Part shown: positions 1,095 through 19,040 of the stretch, one piece after another
Layout: the number at the start of each line of letters is the position of its first letter
Numbering within the stretch: position 1 is the first letter of the stretch
Source: a virus
DNA: 64,000 bases
Direction: 5' to 3' (one strand)
IMG/VR virus record: IMGVR_UViG_3300049259_000288
Span: 12,961-76,960 of that record
Notes under the pieces: model-generated
The model's database searches: none
What the model was told of the DNA's origin: nothing
What the model saw: only the letters and a program-made list of their open reading frames with translations
Program-made: the position numbers and the translations under genes

Positions 1095-1366
1095 TGGTCC
1101 GCGTCGAGACCGTTGGCTCGGTGTGGCTGATCGACGAGACCGAGGGTCGCTACTGCCGCTTCCCGCTCGAGGAGAAGCCGCGCGAGCGGGCCGAGTGGGG
1201 CGACGAGCGCGCCGGTGACCTGCAGGACCTCGTATGGCACGACTTCGCCGGTCAGTGGCGCATCGACGACTACACCGGCCGGCTCTTCATCGAGACGCGT
1301 TGGAGCGAGGACGAGGGCTGGTGGGTGGTCACGGCCCCCCGTGCCCGCGTGGTCAGCGAGACGTGA
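1094..1366 (+). CDS. hypothetical protein
   Basis: TGATG coupling; Trp-rich. Confidence 0.6.
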   Translation: MVRVETVGSVWLIDETEGRYCRFPLEEKPRERAEWGDERAGDLQDLVWHDFAGQWRIDDYTGRLFIETRWSEDEGWWVVTAPRARVVSET

Positions 1367-2085
1367 GCGAGGACCTCTGGGCGCAGCGCGACGACCCGCG
1401 CGTGCGCGAGCGGCTGATCCTGCAGTACCAGCCGCTCGTCGAGCGTGTCGCCGGCGGCATGTCGACCGGCCTGCCGGCGAGCGTCGATCGAGCCGACCTC
1501 GTCGCCGACGGCATCTTCGGTCTGATCGAGGCGGTCGAGTCCTTCGATCCCTCCGTCGGCGCGCAGTTCGAGTCCTTCGCGATGCGTCGCATCCGTGGCG
1601 CCATCCTGGATGCGCTGCGCTCGATCGACTGGGCTCCCCGGACGATCAGGATGAACGCGCGCCAGCTCGAGCGCGTGCGCAGCGACCTGCAGGCCGAGCT
1701 CAATCGCACGCCGACCGAGGCCGAGATCGGCGCCGAGATGGGCATGAGCGAGGAGTCCGTGGCGCGCCTGATGGGCGAGGTCAACGTGGCTCAGGTGGGT
1801 CGCTTCGACGCCGAACTCGAGCAGTGGCACGGCTACGTGTCCCGCAGCGACAACCCCGGCGCTCCGGAGTTCCGGCTGTTCGACCCCGAGCGCCTGGCCG
1901 ACCTGCTGGCCGACGCCATCGTCGAGCTCACGGGCCGGGAGCGCGTGGTCTTCACGCTGTACTACGTGGAGGAGGTCACCTTCAAGGAGATCGGCGAGCT
2001 CCTCGGCGTGTCGAAGGTGCGCGTCAGCCAGCTGCGCGACGACGCCATGCTGCGCGTCAAGGAACACCTGGCGAAGGCGTCATGA
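1363..2085 (+). CDS. RNA polymerase sigma factor, FliA/WhiG (sigma-28) family
   Basis: RERLILQYQPLV...DLVADGIFGLIEAVESFDP...FESFAMRRIRGAILDALRSIDWAPR; region 4 LTGRERVVFTLYYVEEVTFKEIGELLGVSKVRVSQL. Confidence 0.95.
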   Translation: MSEDLWAQRDDPRVRERLILQYQPLVERVAGGMSTGLPASVDRADLVADGIFGLIEAVESFDPSVGAQFESFAMRRIRGAILDALRSIDWAPRTIRMNARQLERVRSDLQAELNRTPTEAEIGAEMGMSEESVARLMGEVNVAQVGRFDAELEQWHGYVSRSDNPGAPEFRLFDPERLADLLADAIVELTGRERVVFTLYYVEEVTFKEIGELLGVSKVRVSQLRDDAMLRVKEHLAKAS

Positions 2086-2391: not shown

Positions 2392-2940
2392 CTACGCGAC
2401 GGCGCCGGCGACGTTGTCGATGGGGAGGTACGGGGCCCACGTCGGGTTGGCCTCGCGGATCCCCATGAGCAACCAGTACGTGCCCGTCGGGACGTAGGGC
2501 TTGAACGCGAGAACCCAGTCCATCTCGGCCAGCGTGTGAGCGGCCTTCCGCGCGTTGCACGGACGGCACGCGGCCACGACGTTGGTCCAGGTGTGCCGGC
2601 CACCCCGCGACCGCGGGTGAACATGGTCGACGGTGGTGCCGCGCCGCGGCGCCCACTGCCGTTCCCCGCGGTGGTTCTCGGGGATGCAGTAGGCGCACCG
2701 GTGCTCGTCACGCCGCAGGACCGCGGCGTTCGACAGCGCGATGCGCGCGGTGTACGGCACCTGCACGTACTTCCGCAGGCGGATCACCTCGGGCACGGGC
2801 ACCGAGGCGCGTGCTGAGTGGTAGGCGTCGTCACCGGCCTCGAGCACCTCGGCCTTCTCGGCCATGACGAGCACGACGGCCCGGCGGGTGTCGATGATCC
2901 GAAGCGGGGTGTAGTCAGCATTGATCAGCAGGGCCGCCAT
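2392..2940 (-). CDS. HNH endonuclease (actinobacterial McrA-like)
   Basis: LLINADYTPL...VLRRDEHRCAYC...TVDHVHPRSRGG.HTWTNVVAACRPCNARK. Confidence 0.92.
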   Translation of the reverse strand: MAALLINADYTPLRIIDTRRAVVLVMAEKAEVLEAGDDAYHSARASVPVPEVIRLRKYVQVPYTARIALSNAAVLRRDEHRCAYCIPENHRGERQWAPRRGTTVDHVHPRSRGGRHTWTNVVAACRPCNARKAAHTLAEMDWVLAFKPYVPTGTYWLLMGIREANPTWAPYLPIDNVAGAVA

Positions 2941-2956
2941 CTGCGTCTCCTTTCCT

Positions 2957-3688
2957 TCATCGTTGGCGCGCCCTTGTTTGCGCATCCAGTCGTTGTTGTC
3001 GTTGGACCGGGTCGGCCCAAACCTTCCGCTGTGCCTCGGCCATGCGCGCGCGGGTCTCCTCGCTCACGACCCGCGCGGTGTTCATCTGCGCGATGGCTTC
3101 CCGCTGCGTCTCGGTGCGCTCGTAGCGCCCGACGCCAGGCGAGGGTCCGTTCCTGGCGTAGGTTGCACGCAGGGACGCAGCGATCTTGGACCGGGTCTCA
3201 TCTGAGAGCCGTCGCCCGGTGTTCGACCTGGCGATCTTCGCGATGACTTCGGGCGCTCGTGGGCGGTCTTTGAGCGTCGCGCGTATCTTTTCGCGAACCA
3301 CCGTGGGCATGGGCCCCTTGGGCTTGCCCCTTTGCCAGGCTGACATCTTCGCCTTTGTTGACACGGAGTGGTGATGGCCTGTCAGACCTTCGCCGCCATC
3401 CGTGTGATTCGTGAGTCGGGCTACAGCGCGGTAGTGCTGGATCCAGTGGCGTTCGCGAGCGGCCCAGTCCTCGCGACCGTCTACGACCTCCACGAGCTGG
3501 ATGATCGGCGGCGAGTTGTCTGCGAGACATCTTCTGATCCACCGATCACGATGGGTGGAGGTTCGACCGGATCGCGCAGACCAAAGGTGGTAGGCGAGCC
3601 GGTCGCCCAGTGGCTTGACGGTCTTTCCGACGTACCGGATTTCGTTGGAACGCTGGTCGATGAGCACATAGATGGACGTGGGTTGCAC
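2957..3688 (-). CDS. GIY-YIG homing endonuclease with NUMOD3 repeats
   Basis: IYVLID...IRYVGKT...RL.YH...E..WI..Y...LTN.TDGGEG; HSVSTKAKMS and LSDETRSKIA repeats. Confidence 0.88.
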   Translation of the reverse strand: MQPTSIYVLIDQRSNEIRYVGKTVKPLGDRLAYHLWSARSGRTSTHRDRWIRRCLADNSPPIIQLVEVVDGREDWAARERHWIQHYRAVARLTNHTDGGEGLTGHHHSVSTKAKMSAWQRGKPKGPMPTVVREKIRATLKDRPRAPEVIAKIARSNTGRRLSDETRSKIAASLRATYARNGPSPGVGRYERTETQREAIAQMNTARVVSEETRARMAEAQRKVWADPVQRQQRLDAQTRARQR

Positions 3689-4395: not shown

Positions 4396-4472
4396 TGGTA
4401 CTCGGGATGGGATTTGAACCCACACGCACCACGCTCTCGACGTGGCGGCTTTGCCGATTTGCCTACCCGAGC
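4396..4472 (-). tRNA. tRNA-Leu(GAG), short variable loop, C33
   Basis: CCACG-TCGAGAG-CGTGG; ACCA. Confidence 0.85.
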
Positions 4473-4479
4473 TTGGTGC

Positions 4480-4553
4480 TGGTGGACCCGACGGGAGTTG
4501 AACCCGCAATCGTCTCCTTGCAGGGGAGGTGCTAGCCGTTCAGCTTCGAGCCC
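4480..4553 (-). tRNA. tRNA-Ala(TGC), C33
   Basis: G3-U70 identity pair; loop CCTGCAA; ACCA. Confidence 0.88.
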
Positions 4554-4557
4554 GAGA

Positions 4558-4646
4558 TGGTTGGTGCGGCTGCCCACGCTCGTCAGCGCGAAGCATCACG
4601 GCAGGGGCTCTCCCGATGCGCTCGGGCGCCTTTCTCAGCCGCACCA
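4558..4646 (-). ncRNA. CCA-ended non-cloverleaf RNA with 11-bp terminal stem
   Basis: TGGTGCGGCTG/CAGCCGCACCA followed by ACCA; two internal hairpins; no T-loop or anticodon arm. Confidence 0.55.
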
Positions 4647-4719: not shown

Positions 4720-4721
4720 GT

Positions 4722-4780
4722 AGAACGTGCTCGGCCCGGCTACGGATCCCTTGGGATTCCGACCGGGCCGAGACGCTTCT
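4722..4780 (-). ncRNA. long imperfect hairpin between tRNAs
   Basis: CTCGGCCCGG/CCGGGCCGAG 10-bp core, extended at both ends. Confidence 0.4.
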
Positions 4781-4788
4781 CTCGCAAA

Positions 4789-4867
4789 TGGTGGCAGGGA
4801 GAGGATTTGAACCTCCGACCTCCGGGTTATGGGCCCGGCGAGCACATCCAGGCTGCTCCACCCTGCG
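4789..4867 (-). tRNA. initiator tRNA-fMet(CAT)
   Basis: 1:72 mismatch; GGG/CCC anticodon stem; loop CCCATAA. Confidence 0.9.
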
Positions 4868-4912
4868 TCGCTCTTGAGACGATACGCCTTGGCGCCGGCG
4901 TCGTCCAGTGTT

Positions 4913-4986
4913 TGGTACCGGTGCTCGGAGTCGAACCGAAGTCCGCGCGGGTATGGGCCGCACGTCGCACGCCTGTCATCACCGGC
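4913..4986 (-). tRNA. tRNA-Met or Ile2 (CAT), atypical D-arm
   Basis: TGCGG-CCCATAC-CCGCG; TTCGAC; ACCA. Confidence 0.75.
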
Positions 4987-4987
4987 A

Positions 4988-5013
4988 TGAACCTTCTCGT
5001 CGATGTCGCCGAT
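4988..5013 (+). promoter_or_regulatory. sigma-28-type promoter firing antisense inside the tRNA array
   Basis: TGAA-N16-GCCGATCG; GTG at 5023. Confidence 0.7.
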
Positions 5014-5022
5014 CGACGGGAT

Positions 5023-5145
5023 GTGAAGCTGAGCTCGCGTGCGGTCACCAACATCCTGACGATCATCGTGCTGATCGTGGCGCTGCTGCCGCTCGAGGTG
5101 TGGCTCCTCGACAACATCTTTCACTTCGGATACAGCGGCGACTAG
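5023..5145 (+). CDS. small single-pass membrane protein
   Basis: VKLSSRAVTNILTIIVLIVALLPLEVWLLDNIFHFGYSGD; fills the gap between two tRNAs. Confidence 0.65.
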   Translation: MKLSSRAVTNILTIIVLIVALLPLEVWLLDNIFHFGYSGD

Positions 5146-5146
5146 A

Positions 5147-5220: not shown

Positions 5221-5222
5221 AG

Positions 5223-5295
5223 TAGGCGTGGGGGGAGTCGAACCCCCGCAACACAGCGTGTGGAGCTGCTGCTCTGGCCACTGAGCTACACGCCC
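5223..5295 (-). tRNA. tRNA-Val(CAC), C33
   Basis: GCAGC-TCCACAC-GCTGT. Confidence 0.88.
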
Positions 5296-5466: not shown

Positions 5467-5542
5467 TGGTAGTCGCGACTGGATTTGAACCAGCGACCTC
5501 CTGCGTGTCGAGCAGGCGCTCTAGCCACTGAGCTACGCGACC
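5467..5542 (-). tRNA. tRNA-Val(GAC), C33
   Basis: CCTGC-TCGACAC-GCAGG. Confidence 0.9.
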
Positions 5543-5620: not shown

Positions 5621-5624
5621 ATGA

Positions 5625-5676
5625 GGCGCTTGCCCCAGAGTCGCACTGGGTGAAACGGGCTCGAAGCCCAAGCGCC
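5625..5676 (-). ncRNA. compact three-way-junction RNA between tRNAs
   Basis: GGCGCTT/AAGCGCC closes GGGCT-TCG-AGCCC and CCCAG-N7-CTGGG. Confidence 0.5.
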
Positions 5677-5678
5677 AG

Positions 5679-5752
5679 AGCCGGTGACAGGAATCGAACC
5701 CGCGTCCTTCTGCTTACAGGGCAGGTGCTCAACCAACGTGAGCTACACCGGC
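5679..5752 (-). tRNA. tRNA-Thr(TGT), C33
   Basis: CTGC-CCTGTAA-GCAG. Confidence 0.88.
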
Positions 5753-5993: not shown

Positions 5994-6068
5994 CCCCGAG
6001 ACGAGGACTCGAACCCCGCTCCTTCCGCGTTAACAGCGCGGCGTCGTCGCCCGGACGACTCTCTCGGG
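5994..6068 (-). tRNA. tRNA-Asn(GTT)
   Basis: CCGCG-CTGTTAA-CGCGG. Confidence 0.88.
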
Positions 6069-6069
6069 T

Positions 6070-6145
6070 TGGTAGTCCGTACGAGATTCGAACTCGTGAT
6101 CTTCTGGTTGAGAACCAGATGTGTTCACCCCTACACCAACGGACC
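6070..6145 (-). tRNA. tRNA-Glu(CTC)
   Basis: TCTGG-TTCTCAA-CCAGA. Confidence 0.9.
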
Positions 6146-6246
6146 ATGTGCGCCGTTGACGACGTGCGCCGGCGCTGCGCTTGCCATCGAAGAGCACGGC
6201 CCTGTGCGGCCCGGAACCGTGTGGCATCTCGTCGATCGTCGCCGAG
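6146..6246 (-). ncRNA. possible structured spacer RNA
   Basis: GACGAT/GTCGTC, TGCCA/TGGCA and CACGGTTC/GGGCCGTG nested stems. Confidence 0.35.
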
Positions 6247-6319
6247 CACTCCGTACCGGATTCGAACCGGTGCCGTGACCTTGAAAGGGTCGTGTCCTTG
6301 GCCGCTAGACGAACGGAGC
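6247..6319 (-). tRNA. tRNA-Glu(TTC)
   Basis: GACC-CTTTCAA-GGTC. Confidence 0.9.
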
Positions 6320-6320
6320 A

Positions 6321-6406
6321 TGGCGGAAGGTGGAGGAATTGAACCCCTGCGCTTGCACGCACCACTGGCTTCGAACCAGCTCGCCTCACCGTCGGCGGCA
6401 CCTTCC
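6321..6406 (-). tRNA. tRNA-Ser(CGA) with 8/4 acceptor/T-stem fold
   Basis: GGAAGGTG/CACCTTCC 8-bp acceptor; 4-bp T-stem GGGG/CCTC; long variable arm; G73. Confidence 0.8.
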
Positions 6407-6411
6407 TCGAG

Positions 6412-6499
6412 CGGAGCGAGTGAGATTCGAACTCACGGCGCATTGCTGCGCGCACGTCTTTCCAGAACGGCCCGTTCAGCCAGACTCCGGCATCGCTCC
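6412..6499 (-). tRNA. tRNA-Ser(GGA)
   Basis: Loop CTGGAAA; long variable arm. Confidence 0.9.
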
Positions 6500-6503
6500 G
6501 AGA

Positions 6504-6593
6504 TGGCGGATCGTGGAGGGCTCGAACCCCCGCCAGTTCCTCACTGACGCCCCGCGCTTCAAACGCAGTTCGCCCCCACGGGCGGCACGATCC
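6504..6593 (-). tRNA. tRNA-Ser(TGA) with 8/4 acceptor/T-stem fold
   Basis: GGATCGTG/CACGATCC 8-bp acceptor; T-stem GGGG/CCTC; loop TTTGAAG. Confidence 0.8.
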
Positions 6594-6597
6594 TCGA

Positions 6598-6688
6598 TGG
6601 CGGAGACGGTGGGATTTGAACCCACGGCGCATCACTGCGCGCACGACTTAGCAGGTCGGCCCGATGAACCAGACTCTGGCACGTCTCC
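6598..6688 (-). tRNA. tRNA-Ser(GCT)
   Basis: Loop CTGCTAA; long variable arm; GCCA. Confidence 0.9.
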
Positions 6689-6692
6689 GAGA

Positions 6693-6768
6693 TGGCGTCC
6701 TCGGCGCGACTCGAACGCGCGACCTGCGCGTTAGGAGCGCGCTGCTCTCGCCACTGAGCTACGAGGAC
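6693..6768 (-). tRNA. tRNA-Arg(CCT)
   Basis: GCGCG-CTCCTAA-CGCGC. Confidence 0.92.
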
Positions 6769-6769
6769 G

Positions 6770-6846
6770 TGGAGCCGAAGTCGGGAATCGAACCCGAGGC
6801 CTCACCCGTACCAGGGGTGCGCTCTACCAAACTGAGCTACGTCGGC
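6770..6846 (-). tRNA. tRNA-Thr(GGT)
   Basis: CACCC-CTGGTAC-GGGTG. Confidence 0.92.
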
Positions 6847-6847
6847 G

Positions 6848-6922
6848 TGGCGCCCACGACAGGACTCGAACCTGCAGCCTCGACCTCCGGAGGGTCGCGC
6901 TCTCCCATTGAGCTACGTGAGC
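6848..6922 (-). tRNA. tRNA-Arg(CCG)
   Basis: CGACC-CTCCGGA-GGTCG. Confidence 0.92.
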
Positions 6923-6949
6923 TACGTGCTACGTGAGCATCGTGCATTG

Positions 6950-7021
6950 CGTCCCAGAGAGGGGTCGAACCTCCAACCTACGGCTCCGTAGACCGTCGCT
7001 CTTCCATTGAGCTACCGGGAC
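6950..7021 (-). tRNA. tRNA-Arg(ACG)
   Basis: ACGGT-CTACGGA-GCCGT. Confidence 0.92.
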
Positions 7022-7122
7022 TCGCGGCGGGCGCTCTGCCACAGAGCTTCGCCGTCCTCGGATGCTGCGCGCAGCATCGTCATCGAACGGCGGCAGGAAT
7101 TGAACCTGCGCCTCCCGCCTCG
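7022..7122 (-). ncRNA. circularly permuted tRNA mimic (YrlA-like domain order)
   Basis: The 3' half (GCGGG, T-arm GCAGG-TTCAATT-CCTGC, CGCCGTT) precedes the 5' half (GACGGCG, D-arm GCTC..GAGC, CCCGC); the acceptor stem is capped by a hairpin. Confidence 0.8.
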
Positions 7123-7198
7123 CGCGGCTGACGGGATTTGAACCCGCGATCTCTTCCTTGACAGGGAAGTGAGGACGACCAGACTCCTCCACAGCTGC
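7123..7198 (-). tRNA. tRNA-Asp(GTC)
   Basis: CTTCC-CTGTCAA-GGAAG. Confidence 0.9.
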
Positions 7199-7203
7199 TT
7201 GGG

Positions 7204-7278
7204 TGCGCGATCAGGGACTCGAACCCTGCCTATGTCGGTTTAAGAGACCGCTGGTCCAGCCATCTGACCAAATCGCGC
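7204..7278 (-). tRNA. tRNA-Lys(CTT)
   Basis: CGGT-CTCTTAA-ACCG. Confidence 0.88.
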
Positions 7279-7283
7279 GTGAG

Positions 7284-7424
7284 GTGCGTGGAGTGGGCGC
7301 GGCGTGTGTGCCTGTTCTTCGATCGGTTTGGAACCCGGCCAGGCCCTCTGTCACGAGAGCCCACTTCCGTCGGTGACACGAACCGGGTGCGTTCTCGCAC
7401 GCCTCCATGTCGATCTCCACGCAC
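7284..7424 (-). ncRNA. ~140-nt rod-like RNA with potential pseudoknot
   Basis: 10-bp terminal stem GTGCGTGGAG/CTCCACGCAC; GGCGTG/CACGCC; loop GTGACA is complementary to upstream TGTCAC. Confidence 0.6.
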
Positions 7425-7427
7425 GAG

Positions 7428-7507
7428 TGGGCCCGGAGGGAATCGAACCCCCTGTGTCATTCGACGTCTGGGTTACAACCAGGTGCGCCCCATGGCGCGT
7501 CGGACCC
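7428..7507 (-). tRNA. tRNA-Tyr(GTA)
   Basis: CTGG-TTGTAAC-CCAG; variable arm GTC-GAAT-GAC. Confidence 0.85.
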
Positions 7508-7540
7508 GTGTGGCGAGGGTTGGCGCCCTCGCCCTATCTC

Positions 7541-7564
7541 GGCGTCTATGCGATTGTCAACGAG
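7541..7564. repeat. right arm of long-range inverted repeat; boxA-like on the minus strand
   Basis: Minus strand GCTCGTTGACAATCGCATAGACGCC pairs with the 2204-2226 arm. Confidence 0.85.
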
Positions 7565-7576
7565 CTGGTACTCAAG

Positions 7577-7648
7577 CAGGGGCGGGAGGGATCGAACCTC
7601 CGTTGCCGGTTTTGGAGACCGGAGTCCGTTCCACTGGACCACGCCCCC
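7577..7648 (-). tRNA. tRNA-Trp(CCA)
   Basis: CCGGT-CTCCAAA-ACCGG. Confidence 0.92.
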
Positions 7649-7652
7649 TGGG

Positions 7653-7907
7653 TGTTGCTGCGGTGAAAGGCAGCCGAGCAGCGGCGCCGGGTATCCCGAC
7701 GGCTGATCCGCTTCACTGGCTTGCCCTTCGATGTCCTGCGGTCTGTCGACCTACAGGTTCGACGGCGTTACCAGCTAACGCGGGTCCCCGGCTTATTCGC
7801 CGGGATGCGCTTGGCTTCGTACGTCACGCACGAAGGAAGCGCCTCGGGCGCGCCGGCGGACAGAGCGAATCGCTCTGTCCTCGCATCGGCGTGTGCCCGG
7901 TACAACA
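7653..7907 (-). ncRNA. ornate ~255-nt multibranched leader RNA of the tRNA operon
   Basis: Terminal TGTTG/CAACA stem, nested GCCGA/TCGGC, GCCGG/CCGGC, CCCGA/TCGGG, and at least five hairpins. Confidence 0.65.
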
Positions 7908-7915
7908 TCGACGCC

Positions 7916-7946
7916 ATCATGCCCACGTCTCGCGCCGCGCAGTCAA
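7916..7946 (-). promoter_or_regulatory. putative SigA-type promoter of the tRNA operon
   Basis: TTGACT-N19-CATGAT; predicted start coincides with the 5' end of the structured RNA. Confidence 0.5.
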
Positions 7947-7970
7947 TGAATTTCTCGCGATGATGTTCGT

Positions 7971-8156
7971 ATGAGGCTCATCGACCGGGCGACCGGCCAG
8001 CCGCCGGTGCTCCGGAACGGCTACTCCTTCTCCATCGAGACCATGCTCATCGAGGGCACGGAAGTCCCCGACGGCGTCGTCGGCGAGGACGTCGCGACCG
8101 CTCAGTCCTTGCGGACCTCCACGTACTTCACCTCGTACCGTGCACCAGGTGGGTGA
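7971..8156 (+). CDS. hypothetical protein
   Basis: Divergent from the tRNA operon; GC3-biased codons. Confidence 0.5.
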   Translation: MRLIDRATGQPPVLRNGYSFSIETMLIEGTEVPDGVVGEDVATAQSLRTSTYFTSYRAPGG

Positions 8157-8556
8157 CGTCGACCAGAAGGCGGAAGCCCGCGAGACGGTCGACGCGTTGC
8201 GCGGGCGGAGCGACTACGAGCTGGGGCTGCTCTGCACGGAGATCCTGCAGTCGCGCGCGCCGCGGCCGATCGAGAACCGCAAGGGACGCCGGTGCCGGTG
8301 GTGTGGCAACGGGATCGCGCCGGACGCGCCGGCGTACCGCATGTTCTGTCGTGACGTCTGCATCCAGGCGAAGCAGGACGCCATGGTGCGCGCCAACTGC
8401 GAGCACCTCGATTGGGTCGAGGCGCGCGACGCCTATGGCGAGTTCGAGCGGTGCGCGCGCTGCGGCATGGAGCGCACCGTCGAGGACCGTGTCATGGCCA
8501 TGCTGATCGCGCTCTTCCGGCCCATGGTCATCGTGCCGGTGGGCGAGTACCTCTAG
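8149..8556 (+). CDS. hypothetical Zn-finger protein
   Basis: CRWC...FCRDVC, CEH...CARC. Confidence 0.6.
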   Translation: MGDVDQKAEARETVDALRGRSDYELGLLCTEILQSRAPRPIENRKGRRCRWCGNGIAPDAPAYRMFCRDVCIQAKQDAMVRANCEHLDWVEARDAYGEFERCARCGMERTVEDRVMAMLIALFRPMVIVPVGEYL

Positions 8557-8566
8557 CCTTCCGGCC

Positions 8567-9040
8567 ATGCTGGATGCTGCGTACCTCGACCGTCGCCTCG
8601 GCGAGCGGCTCACCTTCCCGACCTTCCTCGCGTCGATCGGCGAGCCCCTCGAGGGCGACCGACTGCCCGACGGCGAGTGGACCTGGGTGACACTCGGTGG
8701 CTACGTGGAGCGGGCCCATGGCGCTATCGCGCCGCCGGCGGATCAGGTCGGCTTCCACGTCATGGAGTTCGTCACCGAGCTTGGCGATGCGGAGAACGTC
8801 GATCGGCTCATCGACCTCGCCGGCCAGCAGATCGACCGCGCCGTGCTCCTGCGGCTCAGCGCGCTCATCGCCGCGGGCTCGGGCTACCTCGTCGAGAACA
8901 TGGACGTCATGTACTCGATCGGGGCGCGCGAGACGAAGGTGTGGGAGGAGCCGATGAACTTCGAGTCGTCGGTCCTGCACTGGATGTGCCGGACCCCGGT
9001 GCGCCTGGCGATTGGGATGCCAGCGGGCGTTCCCGCCTGA
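8567..9040 (+). CDS. hypothetical protein
   Basis: ORF with phage-typical codon bias. Confidence 0.65.
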   Translation: MLDAAYLDRRLGERLTFPTFLASIGEPLEGDRLPDGEWTWVTLGGYVERAHGAIAPPADQVGFHVMEFVTELGDAENVDRLIDLAGQQIDRAVLLRLSALIAAGSGYLVENMDVMYSIGARETKVWEEPMNFESSVLHWMCRTPVRLAIGMPAGVPA

Positions 9041-15127: not shown

Positions 15128-17053
15128 GTGAGCGTCGTCCATGTCGAGACCGACGAGTTCGGCGACATCGCAGCAGCGGATGCGACCGGTCTGCACCTGA
15201 GCCCGGGCGAGGTCCGTCAGGTGTGGTCGCAGATGATGGCGAACGACCCGCTGGTCGCCGCGCTGACCACCTGGACTCGCAAGGTCCAGCGGCCCCGGCG
15301 CCGGGGCGGCCTGCTCGATCGTGACCGCTACGCCACCCCCGGCACTACCTTCGACCAGATCCGCACGGCGCGCGACGCCATGGACGACGACGTCGTCGAG
15401 GGCATCGCCGACCTCACCGAGGCGCTCGCGTTCAAGAAGGTCGGCTTCTTCTCCCCCGACGAGGACGAGGAGAGCGCCTGGAACCAGTGGGCTGGCACGG
15501 TGAACCTCGACGGACTGCTGCGCCAGGCGTGGCGGACCTACTTCACCGACTCGCAGGCGGTCGTTGCGTTGTGGTGGGGCCGCACGCAGTACAAGGTCAC
15601 CGGCAAGACCCGCAAGGGCAACGAGCGCCGAAAGACCTTCGACCTCGCGGTGCCGACGGCGATCGACACCATCGACTCGCTCAAGGTCACGCCCGTCGGC
15701 GACATGCTCTTCGGCCGGGAGCGGCTGGCCTACATCGCCACCATCGGAGAGGCCGAGGCGTTCGACGAGATCCTCGGGCGTCGGAACTCGATCATGAAGC
15801 GCACGGGCCGGCTGCCCAGCGGGGCGCCGTTCCCGCGGATGCTTCCCGTGCGCTGGGACGACGAGGAGACCCTCGACAACGAGGTCGTCGATCGCCTGCT
15901 CGTGGGGCGCTACACGCCCGATGGTGACGAGGCGCGCCTGCTGATGAGCGAGGGGGTCGACCCCCAAAACCTCTTCCTGATGTCGAACGACTCGGTGTTC
16001 CGGCACACCGCGACCAAGGGCGGCCACGAGCGGTTCGCCCGGGTGCGGATGAAGTCCACCTTCGAGCTCCTCGACATGAAGCACCAGCTGCGCCAGAAGG
16101 ACCGGGTCTTCCTGCTCGCCGGCATCAACTTCATCCTGGTGATCAAGCAGGGCTCGGACACGCTGCCAGCGCTGCCCGAGGAGATCAGCCACCTGCGCGC
16201 CAACACCCAGGTGCTGGCGCAGATGCCGGTCATCGTCGGGCCCCACACCCTGACCGTCGACGTGGTGACGCCGGACCAGGAGTCGGTGCTGAACCGCGAC
16301 AAGTGGGATGTGCTTGATGAGCGCATCGCCGCGCGTCTGCTGCGGCAGTTCGGGCCACGCGGCGGCGGCGCCGGCGACCAGACCGCCGACCTCGCTCAGC
16401 TCGCCGGGCTGTGGCTCGAGTCCGAGCGCCACATGCTGAACCGGACGCTCGAGGCCAAGATCTTCGACCTCATCCGCAAGCGGAACGAGCAGCTGACCCA
16501 GCGCGCCAAGCTCCGGTACTACCCGAAGCGCATCGCACTGGCCTTCGACTCGGCCTACGCCTCGTTCCTGCTGGACATGCGCGACAAGAACGAGGTCAGC
16601 CGCGACACCGTGCACACCGAGTTCGGCCTCGACCAGGGCGACGAGGCGGCGATGCGCGAGCGCGAAGAGCGCGACTTCGACGAGATCTTCAAGACCCTGG
16701 CGACGCCCGGCGCCGGCATGGCGACCGGAACGCCGGGGGCTCCAGCCGGTCTCCCGGGCGGAAATCCCGGCGGCGGGGACGGCGGTGCCGGCGGCGGCCG
16801 CGCGGCGCAGAAGCAGGCGGGTCGCAATGGTGGTGGCACCAGCAACGGCGGCGGTGCGGCGCCGGGCAGCGGCCAGGGTCAGGCGCCGCGCCGGCTGCGC
16901 AAGCTGTCGGCGAGCTCGACGCGCACGGCGCTGCTCGCCGCGGCCAAGGAGCTCGAGATCCCCGGGCGCTCTGGCATGAACCGTGAGCAGCTGGCGACGG
17001 CGATCCACGCCGAGCTGGGAATCGACGGTCCCGAGGAGGACGACGATGAGTGA
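15128..17053 (+). CDS. portal protein with Gly-rich linker and C-terminal Rho-N-like HeH domain
   Basis: Size and position before protease/scaffold/capsid; C-terminal TRTALLAAAKELEIPGRSGMNREQLATAI. Confidence 0.75.
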   Translation: MSVVHVETDEFGDIAAADATGLHLSPGEVRQVWSQMMANDPLVAALTTWTRKVQRPRRRGGLLDRDRYATPGTTFDQIRTARDAMDDDVVEGIADLTEALAFKKVGFFSPDEDEESAWNQWAGTVNLDGLLRQAWRTYFTDSQAVVALWWGRTQYKVTGKTRKGNERRKTFDLAVPTAIDTIDSLKVTPVGDMLFGRERLAYIATIGEAEAFDEILGRRNSIMKRTGRLPSGAPFPRMLPVRWDDEETLDNEVVDRLLVGRYTPDGDEARLLMSEGVDPQNLFLMSNDSVFRHTATKGGHERFARVRMKSTFELLDMKHQLRQKDRVFLLAGINFILVIKQGSDTLPALPEEISHLRANTQVLAQMPVIVGPHTLTVDVVTPDQESVLNRDKWDVLDERIAARLLRQFGPRGGGAGDQTADLAQLAGLWLESERHMLNRTLEAKIFDLIRKRNEQLTQRAKLRYYPKRIALAFDSAYASFLLDMRDKNEVSRDTVHTEFGLDQGDEAAMREREERDFDEIFKTLATPGAGMATGTPGAPAGLPGGNPGGGDGGAGGGRAAQKQAGRNGGGTSNGGGAAPGSGQGQAPRRLRKLSASSTRTALLAAAKELEIPGRSGMNREQLATAIHAELGIDGPEEDDDE

Positions 17054-19040
17054 GCTCGAAGCGCCCCTGGTGGTGCAGGCGAACCGCGGGTTCCACGTGC
17101 TGTCGCTGGCCGAGGTCATCGACGACACGAAGGAGACGGCGGCGTCCTGGGCCGGCGAGCACATCCAGCTGCGCCCGGACTTCGGCTGGATCGTGGGCCG
17201 CTACGTCGAGGCGGACAAGCCCAACCGCAACGGCCACATCTTCCCGATGGAGGACCTGCGCGCCTCGCACCAGGGCGTGGTGCACACCTACCTGAACATG
17301 CTCCACCGCCAGCACCACGTCGTGGGCACCTTCACCGCGGCCAAGCTGCTCGAGGGCGTGGAGTCTGCGGTGCCGTTCGCGGCGTCGGAGCAGGCGGCGA
17401 TGCTCAACCCGCACGTCGAGGCCGTCTCGGCGTTCTGGCGCTACGCCTTCCCGGACGAGTACCGCGCCACCCAGGCCGCCTTCCGCGATCGCAGCGCGTG
17501 GCTGTCGATGGAGGCCGTGCCCCGGCGGATCACCTGCACCGCCGACAACCTCACCTTCGACTACAAGGGCCCGGCGCACGACAGCTACTGCGAGCACCTC
17601 CTCGCCTCGCCGCGTGCGCAGCGTCGGCTGAACCAGCCGCACTTCGTCGGCGGCGCCGTCATCATCCCGCCGACGCGCCCGGGTTGGGCCCACGCCGACA
17701 TCCGCGACGTCGCCGGCGTCATCGAGAAGCACCTGGATGAGGCGGAGATGGTCTATGAGACGGTGGCCGCCGCCGCGTCGCACCTCGATCCCAAGACCTG
17801 GGAAGCGGTGATGGCCAAGGTGCTCGCCCACGCGTTCCCCCGCGACGCCGTGGCCACGGCGCGCCAGTTCTCCACCGGTGAGCGCGAGAAGCTCGCGAAG
17901 AGCGGCGAGGCCATGTCCGACGGCTCCTTCCCGATCAAGAACGCCGAGGACCTCAAGAACGCGATCAGCGCCTACGGCCGCGCCAAGAACCGCGCAGCTG
18001 CCAAGCGCCACATCATGAAGCGCGCCCGCTCGCTGGGCCTCGAGAACCTGATCCCCGAGGAGTGGAAGGGCCGGGAGACAGCGGCGACGTCGATGCCGGC
18101 GAACGTCCGGGCAGCGTATGACGCCCACCTCGCCGAGGGCGGCTGGGAGCCCGACCCGCAGGTGAACTACCAGGCGCACCCCTACAAGGGCGGCGTGCTG
18201 CACATGGTCGCCGACGGCTGGGGCGAGTGGTTCTTCGCCGAGGTGCAGGGCCAGGTGGCCTTCGTGGCCCAGAAGATGGCTGACGTCCGCGCCTTCCACG
18301 TCGCCGAGGGCATCAACATCGGCAAGCCCCTCGTGAAGCAGATGGGCTGGGGCGACAAGGCGTGGATCGCCGAGCTCATCACCCAGCTCGAGAAGGCCCA
18401 GCCTGACGTGAAGCCCAAGCCAGCGGCTGCTGCGCTTGAGGACATCTCCGGGCTCATCCTCGAAGCGGCGGCCACCAAGAAGGGCGCCATCGTGGCTCTC
18501 GTGCCGCCGCCGGCGATCGCCGAGGACATGGCGAAGCTCGGCAAGGAGCTCCCCGAGGAGATGCACGTCACCCTCGTTTTCCTGGGCGAGATCGCTGATG
18601 GCGGCGGCACGGTGGCCCTCGACGACAAGGACCCGGCGTCGACCGGTCAGCCGGTGAGCAAGGAGCGCGTGCTCGGCGCCGTCGCTGCCTTCTGCGCCGG
18701 CGCGCCGGCGCTGCCCAAGGCCGCCGTGTCGGGACTCGGCGCCTTCGCGCTCGGCGACGACCGAGCCGTGATCTACGCCTCTCTCGACGTCCCCGGCCTG
18801 CCCGAGACCCGTGAGCGCCTGGTGGCGTCGCTCAAGGCCGCCGGCGTGCCGGTGAGCACGCTGCACGGGTTCAGCCCGCACATGAGCCTCGAGTACACGA
18901 CCGCGGCCGACGCCGCGCCGCGCGTCGACGCCTTCGACGGCGACCTGCCGGAGTGGGTCGTCGATCACCTCGAGGTGTGGTGGGACGGCGAGCACATCAG
19001 CTATGAGCTGGCCGGCGGCAAGGTGGCGTTGCCGGCGTGA
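17046..19040 (+). CDS. capsid maturation protease-like protein fused to a C-terminal 2H phosphoesterase
   Basis: N-terminal PNRNGH.F...NMLH...WLSME; middle AMSDGSFPIKN..DLKNAI module; C-terminal HVTL and PHMSL. Confidence 0.75.
   Translation: MSELEAPLVVQANRGFHVLSLAEVIDDTKETAASWAGEHIQLRPDFGWIVGRYVEADKPNRNGHIFPMEDLRASHQGVVHTYLNMLHRQHHVVGTFTAAKLLEGVESAVPFAASEQAAMLNPHVEAVSAFWRYAFPDEYRATQAAFRDRSAWLSMEAVPRRITCTADNLTFDYKGPAHDSYCEHLLASPRAQRRLNQPHFVGGAVIIPPTRPGWAHADIRDVAGVIEKHLDEAEMVYETVAAAASHLDPKTWEAVMAKVLAHAFPRDAVATARQFSTGEREKLAKSGEAMSDGSFPIKNAEDLKNAISAYGRAKNRAAAKRHIMKRARSLGLENLIPEEWKGRETAATSMPANVRAAYDAHLAEGGWEPDPQVNYQAHPYKGGVLHMVADGWGEWFFAEVQGQVAFVAQKMADVRAFHVAEGINIGKPLVKQMGWGDKAWIAELITQLEKAQPDVKPKPAAAALEDISGLILEAAATKKGAIVALVPPPAIAEDMAKLGKELPEEMHVTLVFLGEIADGGGTVALDDKDPASTGQPVSKERVLGAVAAFCAGAPALPKAAVSGLGAFALGDDRAVIYASLDVPGLPETRERLVASLKAAGVPVSTLHGFSPHMSLEYTTAADAAPRVDAFDGDLPEWVVDHLEVWWDGEHISYELAGGKVALPA

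What the first reader, a model, noticed from the sequence alone, without database searches (positions are those of the whole stretch)
7022..7122. Circularly permuted, anticodon-less tRNA mimic between tRNA-Asp and tRNA-Arg
Seen on the minus strand: the 3' half of a tRNA (GCGGG, variable AGGC, T-arm GCAGG-TTCAATT-CCTGC, CGCCGTT) comes before the 5' half (GACGGCG, D-arm GCTC-TGTGGCA-GAGC, CCCGC). The acceptor stem is capped by the palindromic hairpin GATGCTGCGCGCAGCATC. The element is bounded by a direct repeat CGCGAG, and joining the ends gives CCCGCC-GCGA-GGCGGG, a GNRA loop in place of an anticodon. Known: YrlA Y RNAs have this T-arm, closed acceptor, D-arm order. Here there is no Ro60-binding stem and no Ro60 or RtcB gene in the window. 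Inference: a minimal tRNA-elbow decoy, possibly circularised, against tRNA-targeting nucleases or sensors.
Basis: partly seen in the sequence, partly recalled or inferred. Interest (0 to 1): 0.8.

Follow-up and report, generated by a model that had tools for sequence, protein, structure and literature searches.

The report
Back-to-front valine tRNA in phage operon
A soil phage carries, wedged exactly between two of its 38 tRNA genes, a complete valine-type tRNA written back to front with its amino-acid end sealed by a hairpin; it is real and not chance, but nothing yet shows whether it is a working tRNA look-alike RNA or a rearrangement leftover.

Summary
The 101-nt spacer 7122->7022 (minus strand) between tRNA-Asp and tRNA-Arg(ACG) carries, in this order, the anticodon-stem 3' strand, variable loop, T arm, a 7-bp acceptor stem capped by an 18-nt palindromic hairpin, the D arm and the anticodon-stem 5' strand. 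All 31 modelled pairs are standard.

Two corrections:
- It is not anticodon-less. Joining the real spacer ends gives a 73-nt tRNA with a 7-nt loop GCGACGA, anticodon GAC (Val). It shares C33 and G1.U72 with the phage's two genuine Val tRNAs.
- The Rfam YrlA match (24.6 bits, cut-off 69) means nothing. Ordinary tandem-tRNA junctions in the same array score up to 38.5 bits.

No Ro60/TROVE, DUF2828, RtcB or RNA ligase gene is in the 77-kb record, which is about 73% complete. I found no homologue in IMG/VR, INPHARED, JGI metagenomes or GTDB genomes. Logan contigs from two other studies span the element, but their sequences could not be retrieved, so covariation and expression remain untested.

Best reading (about 0.42): a non-decoding tRNA-body mimic released when RNase Z and RNase P process its neighbours. 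Rivals: rearrangement relic (0.35) and a true permuted tRNA gene needing ligation (0.10). This scan has noted similar back-to-front tRNAs in other phages, mostly mounted on a Ro60-linked handle that is absent here.

The parts
7022..7122 (-). Whole element: the 101-nt spacer, equal to a 73-nt permuted tRNA-Val(GAC)-like body plus a 28-nt intervening sequence
7120..7122 (-). 5' end CGA, equal to loop positions 36-38 (C36 G37 A38) if the ends were joined. In the linear form C and G pair with G7023 and C7024
7114..7119 (-). Anticodon-stem 3' strand GGCGGG
7110..7113 (-). Variable loop AGGC (A44, G45, G46, C48 equivalents)
   Evidence: numbering by inference
7093..7109 (-). T arm GCAGG-TTCAATT-CCTGC
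7086..7092 (-). Acceptor 3' strand CGCCGTT
7057..7085 (-). C73-like base plus the 28-nt intervening sequence that closes the acceptor stem
7061..7078 (.). Perfect 18-nt palindrome GATGCTGCGCGCAGCATC (7-bp hairpin, CGCG loop), unique in the window
7050..7056 (-). Acceptor 5' strand GACGGCG (G1.U72 wobble at the top)
7033..7049 (-). A8 A9 plus D arm GCTC-TGTGGCA-GAGC (U14, G15, G18 G19, A21 equivalents)
7026..7032 (-). G26 equivalent plus anticodon-stem 5' strand CCCGCC
7022..7025 (-). 3' end GCGA, equal to loop positions 32-35 (G32 C33 G34 A35) if the ends were joined
7123..7198 (-). Upstream tRNA-Asp(GTC), no encoded CCA. Its discriminator G7123 sets the element's 5' end
6949..7021 (-). Downstream tRNA-Arg(ACG). 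RNase P cleavage before G7021 would set the element's 3' end

Best explanation
The element is a circularly permuted copy of a tRNA-Val(GAC)-type gene that fills the whole spacer between tRNA-Asp and tRNA-Arg. Shown: the anatomy, the exact fit to the spacer, and the kinship to the phage's Val tRNAs. Inferred: it is transcribed with the 38-tRNA operon. RNase Z (or equivalent 3' processing) after tRNA-Asp G73 and RNase P before tRNA-Arg G1 would free it as a roughly 101-nt RNA. It would fold into a tRNA L-shape. The acceptor end is sealed by a hairpin. The two ends, which hold the split anticodon loop, pair into a helix (C-G, G-C, a G.A mismatch, then 6 bp), so it cannot decode. It would then act as a stable tRNA-body mimic that occupies a host or phage factor reading the elbow or the acceptor/T-arm helix. 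This resembles the tRNA-like module of YrlA without the Ro60 handle. M. smegmatis YrlA has a 7-bp acceptor stem, is cut by RNase P and receives CCA. By analogy this RNA may also be opened at G7056 and CCA-tailed, giving a two-piece molecule.
For: All helices are intact: 31 of 31 modelled pairs are standard, and the in-context MFE fold reproduces the structure. The bases for tRNA tertiary contacts are present, read directly: T54-T55-C56-A58, G18-G19, G15/C48, G26/A44, A9, A21. The element fits the spacer exactly. Compared with the array's Val(GAC) it is 75% identical and ranks first of 37. It shares C33 (5 of 37 array tRNAs) and G1.U72 (9 of 37) with both Val tRNAs. By my reading of the alignment, five stem pairs differ on both sides and none is broken. 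The three non-anticodon loop differences (32, 37, 38) all add pairing to the terminal helix of the linear form. A contig from a 2019 groundwater study covers 6978-7265 with 3 differences, and a contig from a 2025 soil study covers 6874-7202 with 20 differences and 17 gaps. The RNase P and CCA precedent is in PMC4201824. The statement that most YrlA RNAs resemble permuted tRNAs with closed acceptor stems is in 10.1101/312249.
Against: There is no expression evidence. Covariation could not be read because the variant positions of the diverged contig were not shown. I found no homologue in IMG/VR, INPHARED, JGI metagenomes or GTDB genomes. No partner protein is in the record: no TROVE, DUF2828 or RtcB, and no RNA ligase among the roughly 50 ORFs scanned against Pfam. 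The intact helices and double stem changes could date from before the permutation, when the gene was still a normal tRNA. Several deviations (A8/U14, G32, 6-bp anticodon stem) could also be read as early decay.
Confidence: 0.42

Rival explanations
1. Rearrangement relic. Two tandem tRNA-Val copies separated by a structured 28-nt spacer lost the outer halves, or a comparable recombination or homing-endonuclease repair event occurred. What remains is a transcribed but functionless permuted pseudogene too young to have decayed.
For: The element is an orphan in every searchable collection. A functional Val(GAC) already exists at 5467-5542. Two homing endonuclease genes (GIY-YIG and HNH) sit inside the array. 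Other long spacers in the array are also strongly structured, so a hairpin spacer is nothing special here. No partner gene was found. The 6-nt direct repeat at both borders fits a recombination scar.
Against: It needs at least two events whose end points add up to exactly one 7-nt loop and abut both neighbours with no leftover bases. The element is only 75% identical to the array's Val(GAC), so it is not a recent copy of that gene, yet no helix is broken. The loop differences all favour a closed terminal helix. It is kept in a relative with 20 differences and 17 gaps over 329 nt.
Confidence: 0.35
2. A true permuted tRNA-Val(GAC) gene. RNase Z and RNase P acting on the neighbours would leave a 5'-phosphate on C7122 and a 3'-OH on A7022, held together by the anticodon stem like a healed anticodon-nuclease product. 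An Rnl-type ligase would seal the 35/36 nick. RNase P and RNase Z would then remove the 28-nt insert, and CCA would be added.
For: The joined ends give a 73-nt cloverleaf with a 7-nt loop, anticodon GAC, C33 and G1.U72, as in the phage's own Val tRNAs. The 3'-half / insert / 5'-half layout and the insert size lie within the 1-74 nt range of known permuted tRNA genes (PMC3978253).
Against: G32: no purine G at position 32 occurs in any of the 37 array tRNAs. Also G37, C73 instead of the A73 of both genuine Val tRNAs, and a 6-bp anticodon stem or an extra base at position 26. It would be redundant with Val(GAC) at 5467-5542. No RNA ligase was found in the 77 kb. There is no BHB motif, and no bacterial or phage precedent is known: 34 genes, all in algae or one archaeon. 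The nick would lie inside the anticodon, and the loop bases pair as a helix. ARAGORN also of 36 artificial junction chimeras, so its call is weak evidence.
Confidence: 0.1
3. A bona fide YrlA-type Y RNA that binds a Ro60/Rsr protein, encoded either by the host or in the missing ~27% of the phage genome.
For: It has the same order: T arm, closed acceptor, D arm. Phage YrlA RNAs are known from 22 phages (PMC4201824). Many actinobacteria encode Rsr (same paper). The record is only ~73% complete.
Against: It scores 24.6 bits against a cut-off of 69, below ordinary tRNA junctions at 38.5 and 34.1 bits. The terminal helix is short (2 + 6 bp) and lacks the GNCGAAN0-1G motif. The only copy of that motif lies in the acceptor/D junction, at a chance-level frequency of 148 per window. 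No TROVE or DUF2828 gene was found.
Confidence: 0.08

Closest known systems
YrlA (Rfam RF02553), tRNA-like Y RNA of bacterial and mycobacteriophage Ro60/Rsr (Chen et al. 2014, PMC4201824; Wang et al. 2018, 10.1101/312249)
   Same: tRNA L-shape module in the order variable region, T arm, loop-closed acceptor stem, D arm, with the RNA ends in the 'anticodon' helix. It has a 7-bp acceptor stem like M. smegmatis YrlA, which is cut by RNase P and CCA-tailed.
   Different: It has no Ro60-binding module, no GNCGAA motif in the terminal helix and no Ro60 gene nearby. It scores far below the gathering score. Its ends carry a recognisable split anticodon loop, and it sits flush between two tRNA genes.
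Circularly permuted tRNA genes of Cyanidioschyzon merolae, green algae and Thermofilum pendens (review PMC3978253)
   Same: The 3' half lies upstream of the 5' half, with an intervening sequence at the acceptor ends (1-74 nt there, 28 nt here) and the junction in the anticodon loop, like their type II.
   Different: Their junction is at 37/38 inside a BHB motif cut by the splicing endonuclease. Here the break is at 35/36, there is no BHB, and the ends would be set by the neighbours' RNase Z and RNase P cuts. No ligase was found. None is known from bacteria or phages.
Two-piece tmRNA from permuted ssrA genes (alpha-proteobacteria, cyanobacteria; cited in PMC3978253)
   Same: A bacterial precedent for a permuted tRNA-like gene (T arm and acceptor 3' strand first) whose insert is removed and whose two pieces stay paired without ligation.
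   Different: The element has no tag reading frame or pseudoknots, and ARAGORN finds no tmRNA in the window.
Stable RNAs C and D (species 1 and 2) in the phage T4 tRNA gene cluster (from my own knowledge, not checked here)
   Same: Small non-tRNA RNAs co-transcribed with phage tRNAs and released by tRNA processing enzymes; their function is still unknown.
   Different: No sequence or structural relation was tested, and they are not permuted tRNAs as far as I know.

Membership tests
YrlA (RF02553) | tRNA-like module: T arm, closed acceptor stem-loop, D arm, with bases for the elbow contacts | tested here: met
YrlA (RF02553) | Reaches Rfam gathering score (69 bits) and is the best match in its genome | tested here: not met
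   It scores 24.6 bits and ranks fourth in the genome, behind tandem tRNA junctions at 38.5, 34.1 and 25.5 bits
YrlA (RF02553) | Ro60-binding module: helix of the 5' and 3' ends with GNCGAAN0-1G in the 5' strand | tested here: not met
   The terminal helix is CGAGGCGGG/CCCGCCGCG. The only GNCGAAG lies at 7047-7053 in the acceptor/D junction, and the motif occurs 148 times in the window
YrlA (RF02553) | Encoded within 4 kb of a Ro60/TROVE gene on the same strand | tested here: not met
   No PF05731 or PF11443 match in the 76,960-bp record. The record is ~73% complete, so a distant gene cannot be excluded
YrlA (RF02553) | Bound by Ro60/Rsr | not testable with these tools
   Needs immunoprecipitation
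Permuted tRNA gene | 3' half upstream of 5' half, joined by an intervening sequence at the acceptor ends | tested here: met
Permuted tRNA gene | Halves rebuild a regular cloverleaf with a 7-nt anticodon loop | tested here: inconclusive
   ARAGORN calls tRNA-Val(GAC), but with G32, a 6-bp stem or an extra base at 26, A8/U14 and C73. ARAGORN also of 36 chimeric controls
Permuted tRNA gene | BHB motif at the termini for the splicing endonuclease | tested here: not met
   The termini form a continuous helix with one A.G mismatch and no 3-nt bulges
Permuted tRNA gene | Circular intermediate, ligated mature tRNA, aminoacylation | not testable with these tools
   No RNA run was listed. No ligase gene was found
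Canonical tRNA | Detected in the native order by ARAGORN or the Rfam tRNA model | tested here: not met
tmRNA (one- or two-piece) | tRNA-like domain plus tag reading frame | tested here: not met
   ARAGORN finds no tmRNA in the window. The only Rfam tmRNA match is 9 bits, elsewhere

The most novel reading that the evidence does not exclude
This is the first permuted tRNA gene outside algae and archaea. A phage tRNA-Val would be written back to front, with its two ends cut precisely by the neighbours' RNase Z and RNase P sites. That leaves a 3'-OH/5'-phosphate nick inside the anticodon, which an RNA-repair ligase seals, so making this tRNA would depend on ligase activity.
Probability: 0.08. Interest if true: 0.85.

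Novelty: new variant of a known kind. Interest (0 to 1): 0.5.

Why it matters
Phages with near-complete tRNA sets are thought to be fighting host attacks on tRNA. If this tRNA-shaped RNA is expressed, it would be a minimal, protein-handle-free version of the Y-RNA tRNA mimic. It cannot decode, but the sequence keeps the bases for every contact of the tRNA body. It would also show that the neighbouring tRNAs' processing sites can define the ends of a non-tRNA RNA. That gives a simple test object for what reads the tRNA elbow during infection. If instead the ends are ligated, it would be the first permuted tRNA gene in the bacterial world. If it is a relic, it documents how YrlA-like RNAs can arise from tRNA arrays.

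Tried and rejected
- Rfam YrlA as a test. Rejected, because tandem tRNA junctions outscore the element. Chen et al. warn of the same artefact.
- Own covariance model R1. Over the window plus 79 loci of distant relatives (portal-like protein at most 43% identical) it found only the element itself and tRNA junctions at 27.8 bits or less.
- DNA and pattern searches:
  - The exact 21-mer had 0 matches in viral contigs.
  - The T-loop + A8A9/U14 D-arm pattern had 0 matches in viral contigs, 3 in metagenome contigs and 1 in genome contigs. All four were unrelated, for example tRNA-Sec next to coding sequence.
  - blastn against INPHARED hit only the flanking tRNAs.
- Relatives by protein. The single-protein scan of viral contigs found none. 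tblastn found only Caudovirales GX15bay (42% identical), which has no such element. Proteins P0002-P0004 (74-76% identical) exist only in Logan assemblies.
- I translated the ORF-like frame across the element to fish for Logan gene calls. Nothing was found.
- Sequencing runs. No RNA holder was listed. Logan contigs of four runs were laid on the stretch. They show presence, but the variant positions of the low-depth diverged contig were not printed. A joint 7021->7235 in one run has only 22 letters on one side and may come from another organism, so I did not use it.
- GNCGAAG motif inside the element: chance level.
- Palindrome as a repeated operator: it is unique in the window.
- Internal promoter or terminator: none by consensus scan.
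- LigT-like 2H domain as the ligase. By established enzymology it needs 2',3'-cyclic phosphate and 5'-OH ends, not the 3'-OH/5'-phosphate ends that RNase P and RNase Z leave.

Full report
WHERE IT IS. The window is bases 12961-76960 of a 76,960-bp IMG/VR virus record, estimated about 73% complete. It has 68% G+C and comes from soil. Its capsid, portal-like and glycosyltransferase genes are only distantly related to known phages; the best match is Caudovirales GX15bay at 42%. The minus strand between 2227 and 7648 holds 37 ARAGORN tRNAs plus one more seen by Rfam, covering all 20 amino acids. Two homing endonuclease genes lie inside the array.

THE OBSERVATION. tRNA-Asp ends with discriminator G7123, and the next three bases are CGA, not CCA. 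tRNA-Arg(ACG) starts at G7021. The spacer is therefore 7122->7022, 101 nt. It reads:
- CGA, then GGCGGG and AGGC;
- the T arm GCAGG-TTCAATT-CCTGC;
- CGCCGTT, then C;
- a 28-nt insert with the perfect palindrome GATGCTGCGCGCAGCATC;
- GACGGCG, then AA;
- the D arm GCTC-TGTGGCA-GAGC;
- G, CCCGCC and GCGA.

Every one of the 31 pairs I modelled is a standard pair. The single-sequence fold has a z-score of -2.9. When tRNA-Asp, the element and tRNA-Arg are folded together, the minimum-energy structure is three independent domains, and the middle one matches my model pair for pair. As a control I took the 36 real tandem junctions of this array. For each I paired the upstream tRNA's 3' strands with the downstream tRNA's 5' strands. 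None combined a full acceptor stem with a full anticodon stem, whereas the element has 7/7 and 6/6. The feature is real and tRNA-derived.

CORRECTION 1: THE ANTICODON IS SPLIT, NOT MISSING. Two bases of the left copy belong to tRNA-Asp, and one base of the right copy is G1 of tRNA-Arg. Using the actual spacer ends, joining A7022 to C7122 and opening the acceptor gives a 73-nt sequence. ARAGORN calls it tRNA-Val(GAC) with a 7-nt loop G-C-G-A-C-G-A. Three features tie it to the phage's valine tRNAs:
- C33 occurs in only 5 of 37 array tRNAs, and both Val tRNAs have it.
- G1.U72 occurs in 9 of 37, and again both Val tRNAs have it.
- The re-permuted body is most similar to the array's Val(GAC), 55 of 73 identical. 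The margin is slim; the next best is 53.

By my reading of the alignment against Val(GAC), five stem pairs differ on both sides and none is broken. ARAGORN also of 36 artificial chimeras, so its call alone is weak. The weight lies in the perfect pairing, the loop length and the shared oddities.

CORRECTION 2: THE YrlA MATCH DOES NOT DISCRIMINATE. Rfam YrlA matches 7006-7130 at 24.6 bits, against a gathering score of 69. Only the T arm, acceptor and D arm align, and the outer stem spills into the neighbouring tRNAs. The same model over the whole record gives 17 sub-threshold hits, all inside the tRNA array. Ordinary junctions score 38.5, 34.1 and 25.5 bits, above the element. Chen et al. 2014 warn of exactly this artefact.

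IS IT A WORKING tRNA IN DISGUISE? Probably not, for these reasons:
- The loop has G32; none of the 37 array tRNAs has G at position 32.
- It has G37, and C73 where both Val tRNAs have A73.
- It has A8/U14.
- The anticodon stem is 6 bp, or else there is an extra base at position 26.
- The three loop positions that differ from Val(GAC) (32, 37, 38) all add pairing to the end helix of the linear RNA: G.A, C-G and G-C on top of the 6 bp.
- A normal Val(GAC) is already in the array.
- Sealing a 3'-OH/5'-phosphate nick would need an Rnl-type ligase, and none was found.

I ran whole-record six-frame HMM searches for TROVE, DUF2828 and RtcB and scanned about 50 ORFs against Pfam. These found no Ro60-like protein, no RtcB and no RNA ligase. 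The only RNA-end enzyme is a 2H phosphoesterase domain (PF13563, 34.4 bits) at the C-terminus of the 685-aa protein at 16983-19040. By established enzymology its chemistry does not fit these ends. Known permuted tRNA genes (34, all in algae or one archaeon) depend on BHB motifs, which are absent here.

RELATIVES AND EXPRESSION. The element is an orphan in everything I could search: INPHARED, IMG/VR, JGI metagenomes and GTDB genomes. Closer relatives of the phage (portal-like protein 74-76% identical) exist only in Logan assemblies. Laying Logan contigs of four other runs on 6000-9000 gave two useful results. A 289-nt contig from a 2019 groundwater study covers 6978-7265 with 3 differences. A 380-nt contig from a 2025 soil study covers 6874-7202 with 20 differences and 17 gaps. 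So the element exists in independent samples and in a diverged relative. The positions of that contig's differences were not printed, so covariation remains untested. No RNA run was listed.

WHAT IT MOST LIKELY IS. Shown: a complete, undamaged, circularly permuted tRNA-Val-type unit that fills its spacer exactly. Inferred: it is co-transcribed with the operon. Cleavage after tRNA-Asp G73 and before tRNA-Arg G1 would release a compact 101-nt RNA with a helical, nearly blunt end and a hairpin-capped acceptor stem, both good protection against exonucleases. M. smegmatis YrlA is the one YrlA with a 7-bp acceptor stem. It is cut by RNase P and then CCA-tailed in vivo. The element has the same 7-bp acceptor plus 5-bp T-stem stack, so a two-piece, CCA-bearing form is plausible.

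I rate 'non-decoding tRNA-body mimic that titrates or recruits a factor reading the tRNA elbow or acceptor/T helix' at about 0.42. 'Young rearrangement relic' is at about 0.35, 'true permuted tRNA needing ligation' at about 0.10, and 'YrlA proper with a Ro60 encoded elsewhere' at about 0.08. The decoy-against-defence idea fits the context: a full tRNA set, and C33 variants in five tRNAs that may be nuclease-evasion changes. It is not tested.

COMPARISON AND NOVELTY. The element works like the tRNA module of YrlA, but it fails four of the five tests for membership; the fifth could not be run. It has the layout of a type II permuted tRNA gene but lacks the BHB motif and a ligase. The nearest bacterial precedent for a permuted, unligated tRNA-like RNA is two-piece tmRNA. 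Earlier notes of this scan describe many back-to-front tRNA mimics in phage tRNA arrays, nearly all mounted on a conserved handle next to a Ro60-like gene. They also describe two handle-less singletons, one of them another valine type. Those notes are leads, not evidence. I file this as a new variant of a known kind, with moderate interest, because neither expression nor selection is shown.

Noticed in passing
window 4396-4472, 4789-4867, 5222-5295, 5467-5542, 5678-5752 (minus strand): Five of the 37 array tRNAs (Leu GAG, Met CAU, Val CAC, Val GAC, Thr UGU) have C instead of the near-universal U at position 33. This may be an anticodon-loop change of the kind proposed to evade host anticodon nucleases.
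   Followed up: partly
window 4913-4986 (minus strand), inside the 279-nt gap 4868-5146: A 74-nt tRNA-like unit, GCCGGTG...CACCGGT-ACCA. It has a good T arm, G1.U72, an encoded CCA and a 6-bp anticodon stem, but no clear D arm. Default ARAGORN and Rfam miss it. At a relaxed threshold ARAGORN calls it Val(TAC) or Met(CAT), depending on register.
   Followed up: partly
window 4483-4553 (minus strand): Rfam finds a tRNA here (46.2 bits) that default ARAGORN misses. Relaxed ARAGORN calls it Cys(GCA). It has A8 A9, like the element.
   Followed up: partly
window 4554-4646, 4720-4788, 5621-5677 (minus strand): Other long spacers of the array are strongly structured. The 93-nt one is closed by an 11-bp stem whose inner 7 bp are followed by ACCA, like an acceptor end. 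The 69-nt one is a long near-perfect hairpin.
   Followed up: no
window 6146-6245 (minus strand): The spacer between the two tRNA-Glu genes is also 101 nt counted from the discriminator, the same length as the element, but has no T-loop motif. A 516-nt contig of another soil run covers 6039-6268 with 13 differences.
   Followed up: no
window 2392-2985 and 2957-3688 (minus strand): HNH and GIY-YIG/NUMOD3 homing endonuclease genes lie inside the tRNA array, between the two tRNA-Gln genes.
   Followed up: no
window 16983-19040 (+): A 685-aa protein just after the portal-like gene has a C-terminal 2H phosphoesterase / 2'-5' RNA ligase superfamily domain (PF13563, 34.4 bits, residues 526-669).
   Followed up: partly
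window 7641-7955: The region upstream of the first tRNA (Trp) is covered by contigs of three other runs at roughly 90-94% identity. In one run the tRNA-Trp stretch 7570-7654 is replaced by 100 other letters.
   Followed up: no
window 1234-2085 (+): A full sigma-70 family factor (regions 2, 3 and 4) is encoded convergently, just downstream of the end of the tRNA array.
   Followed up: no
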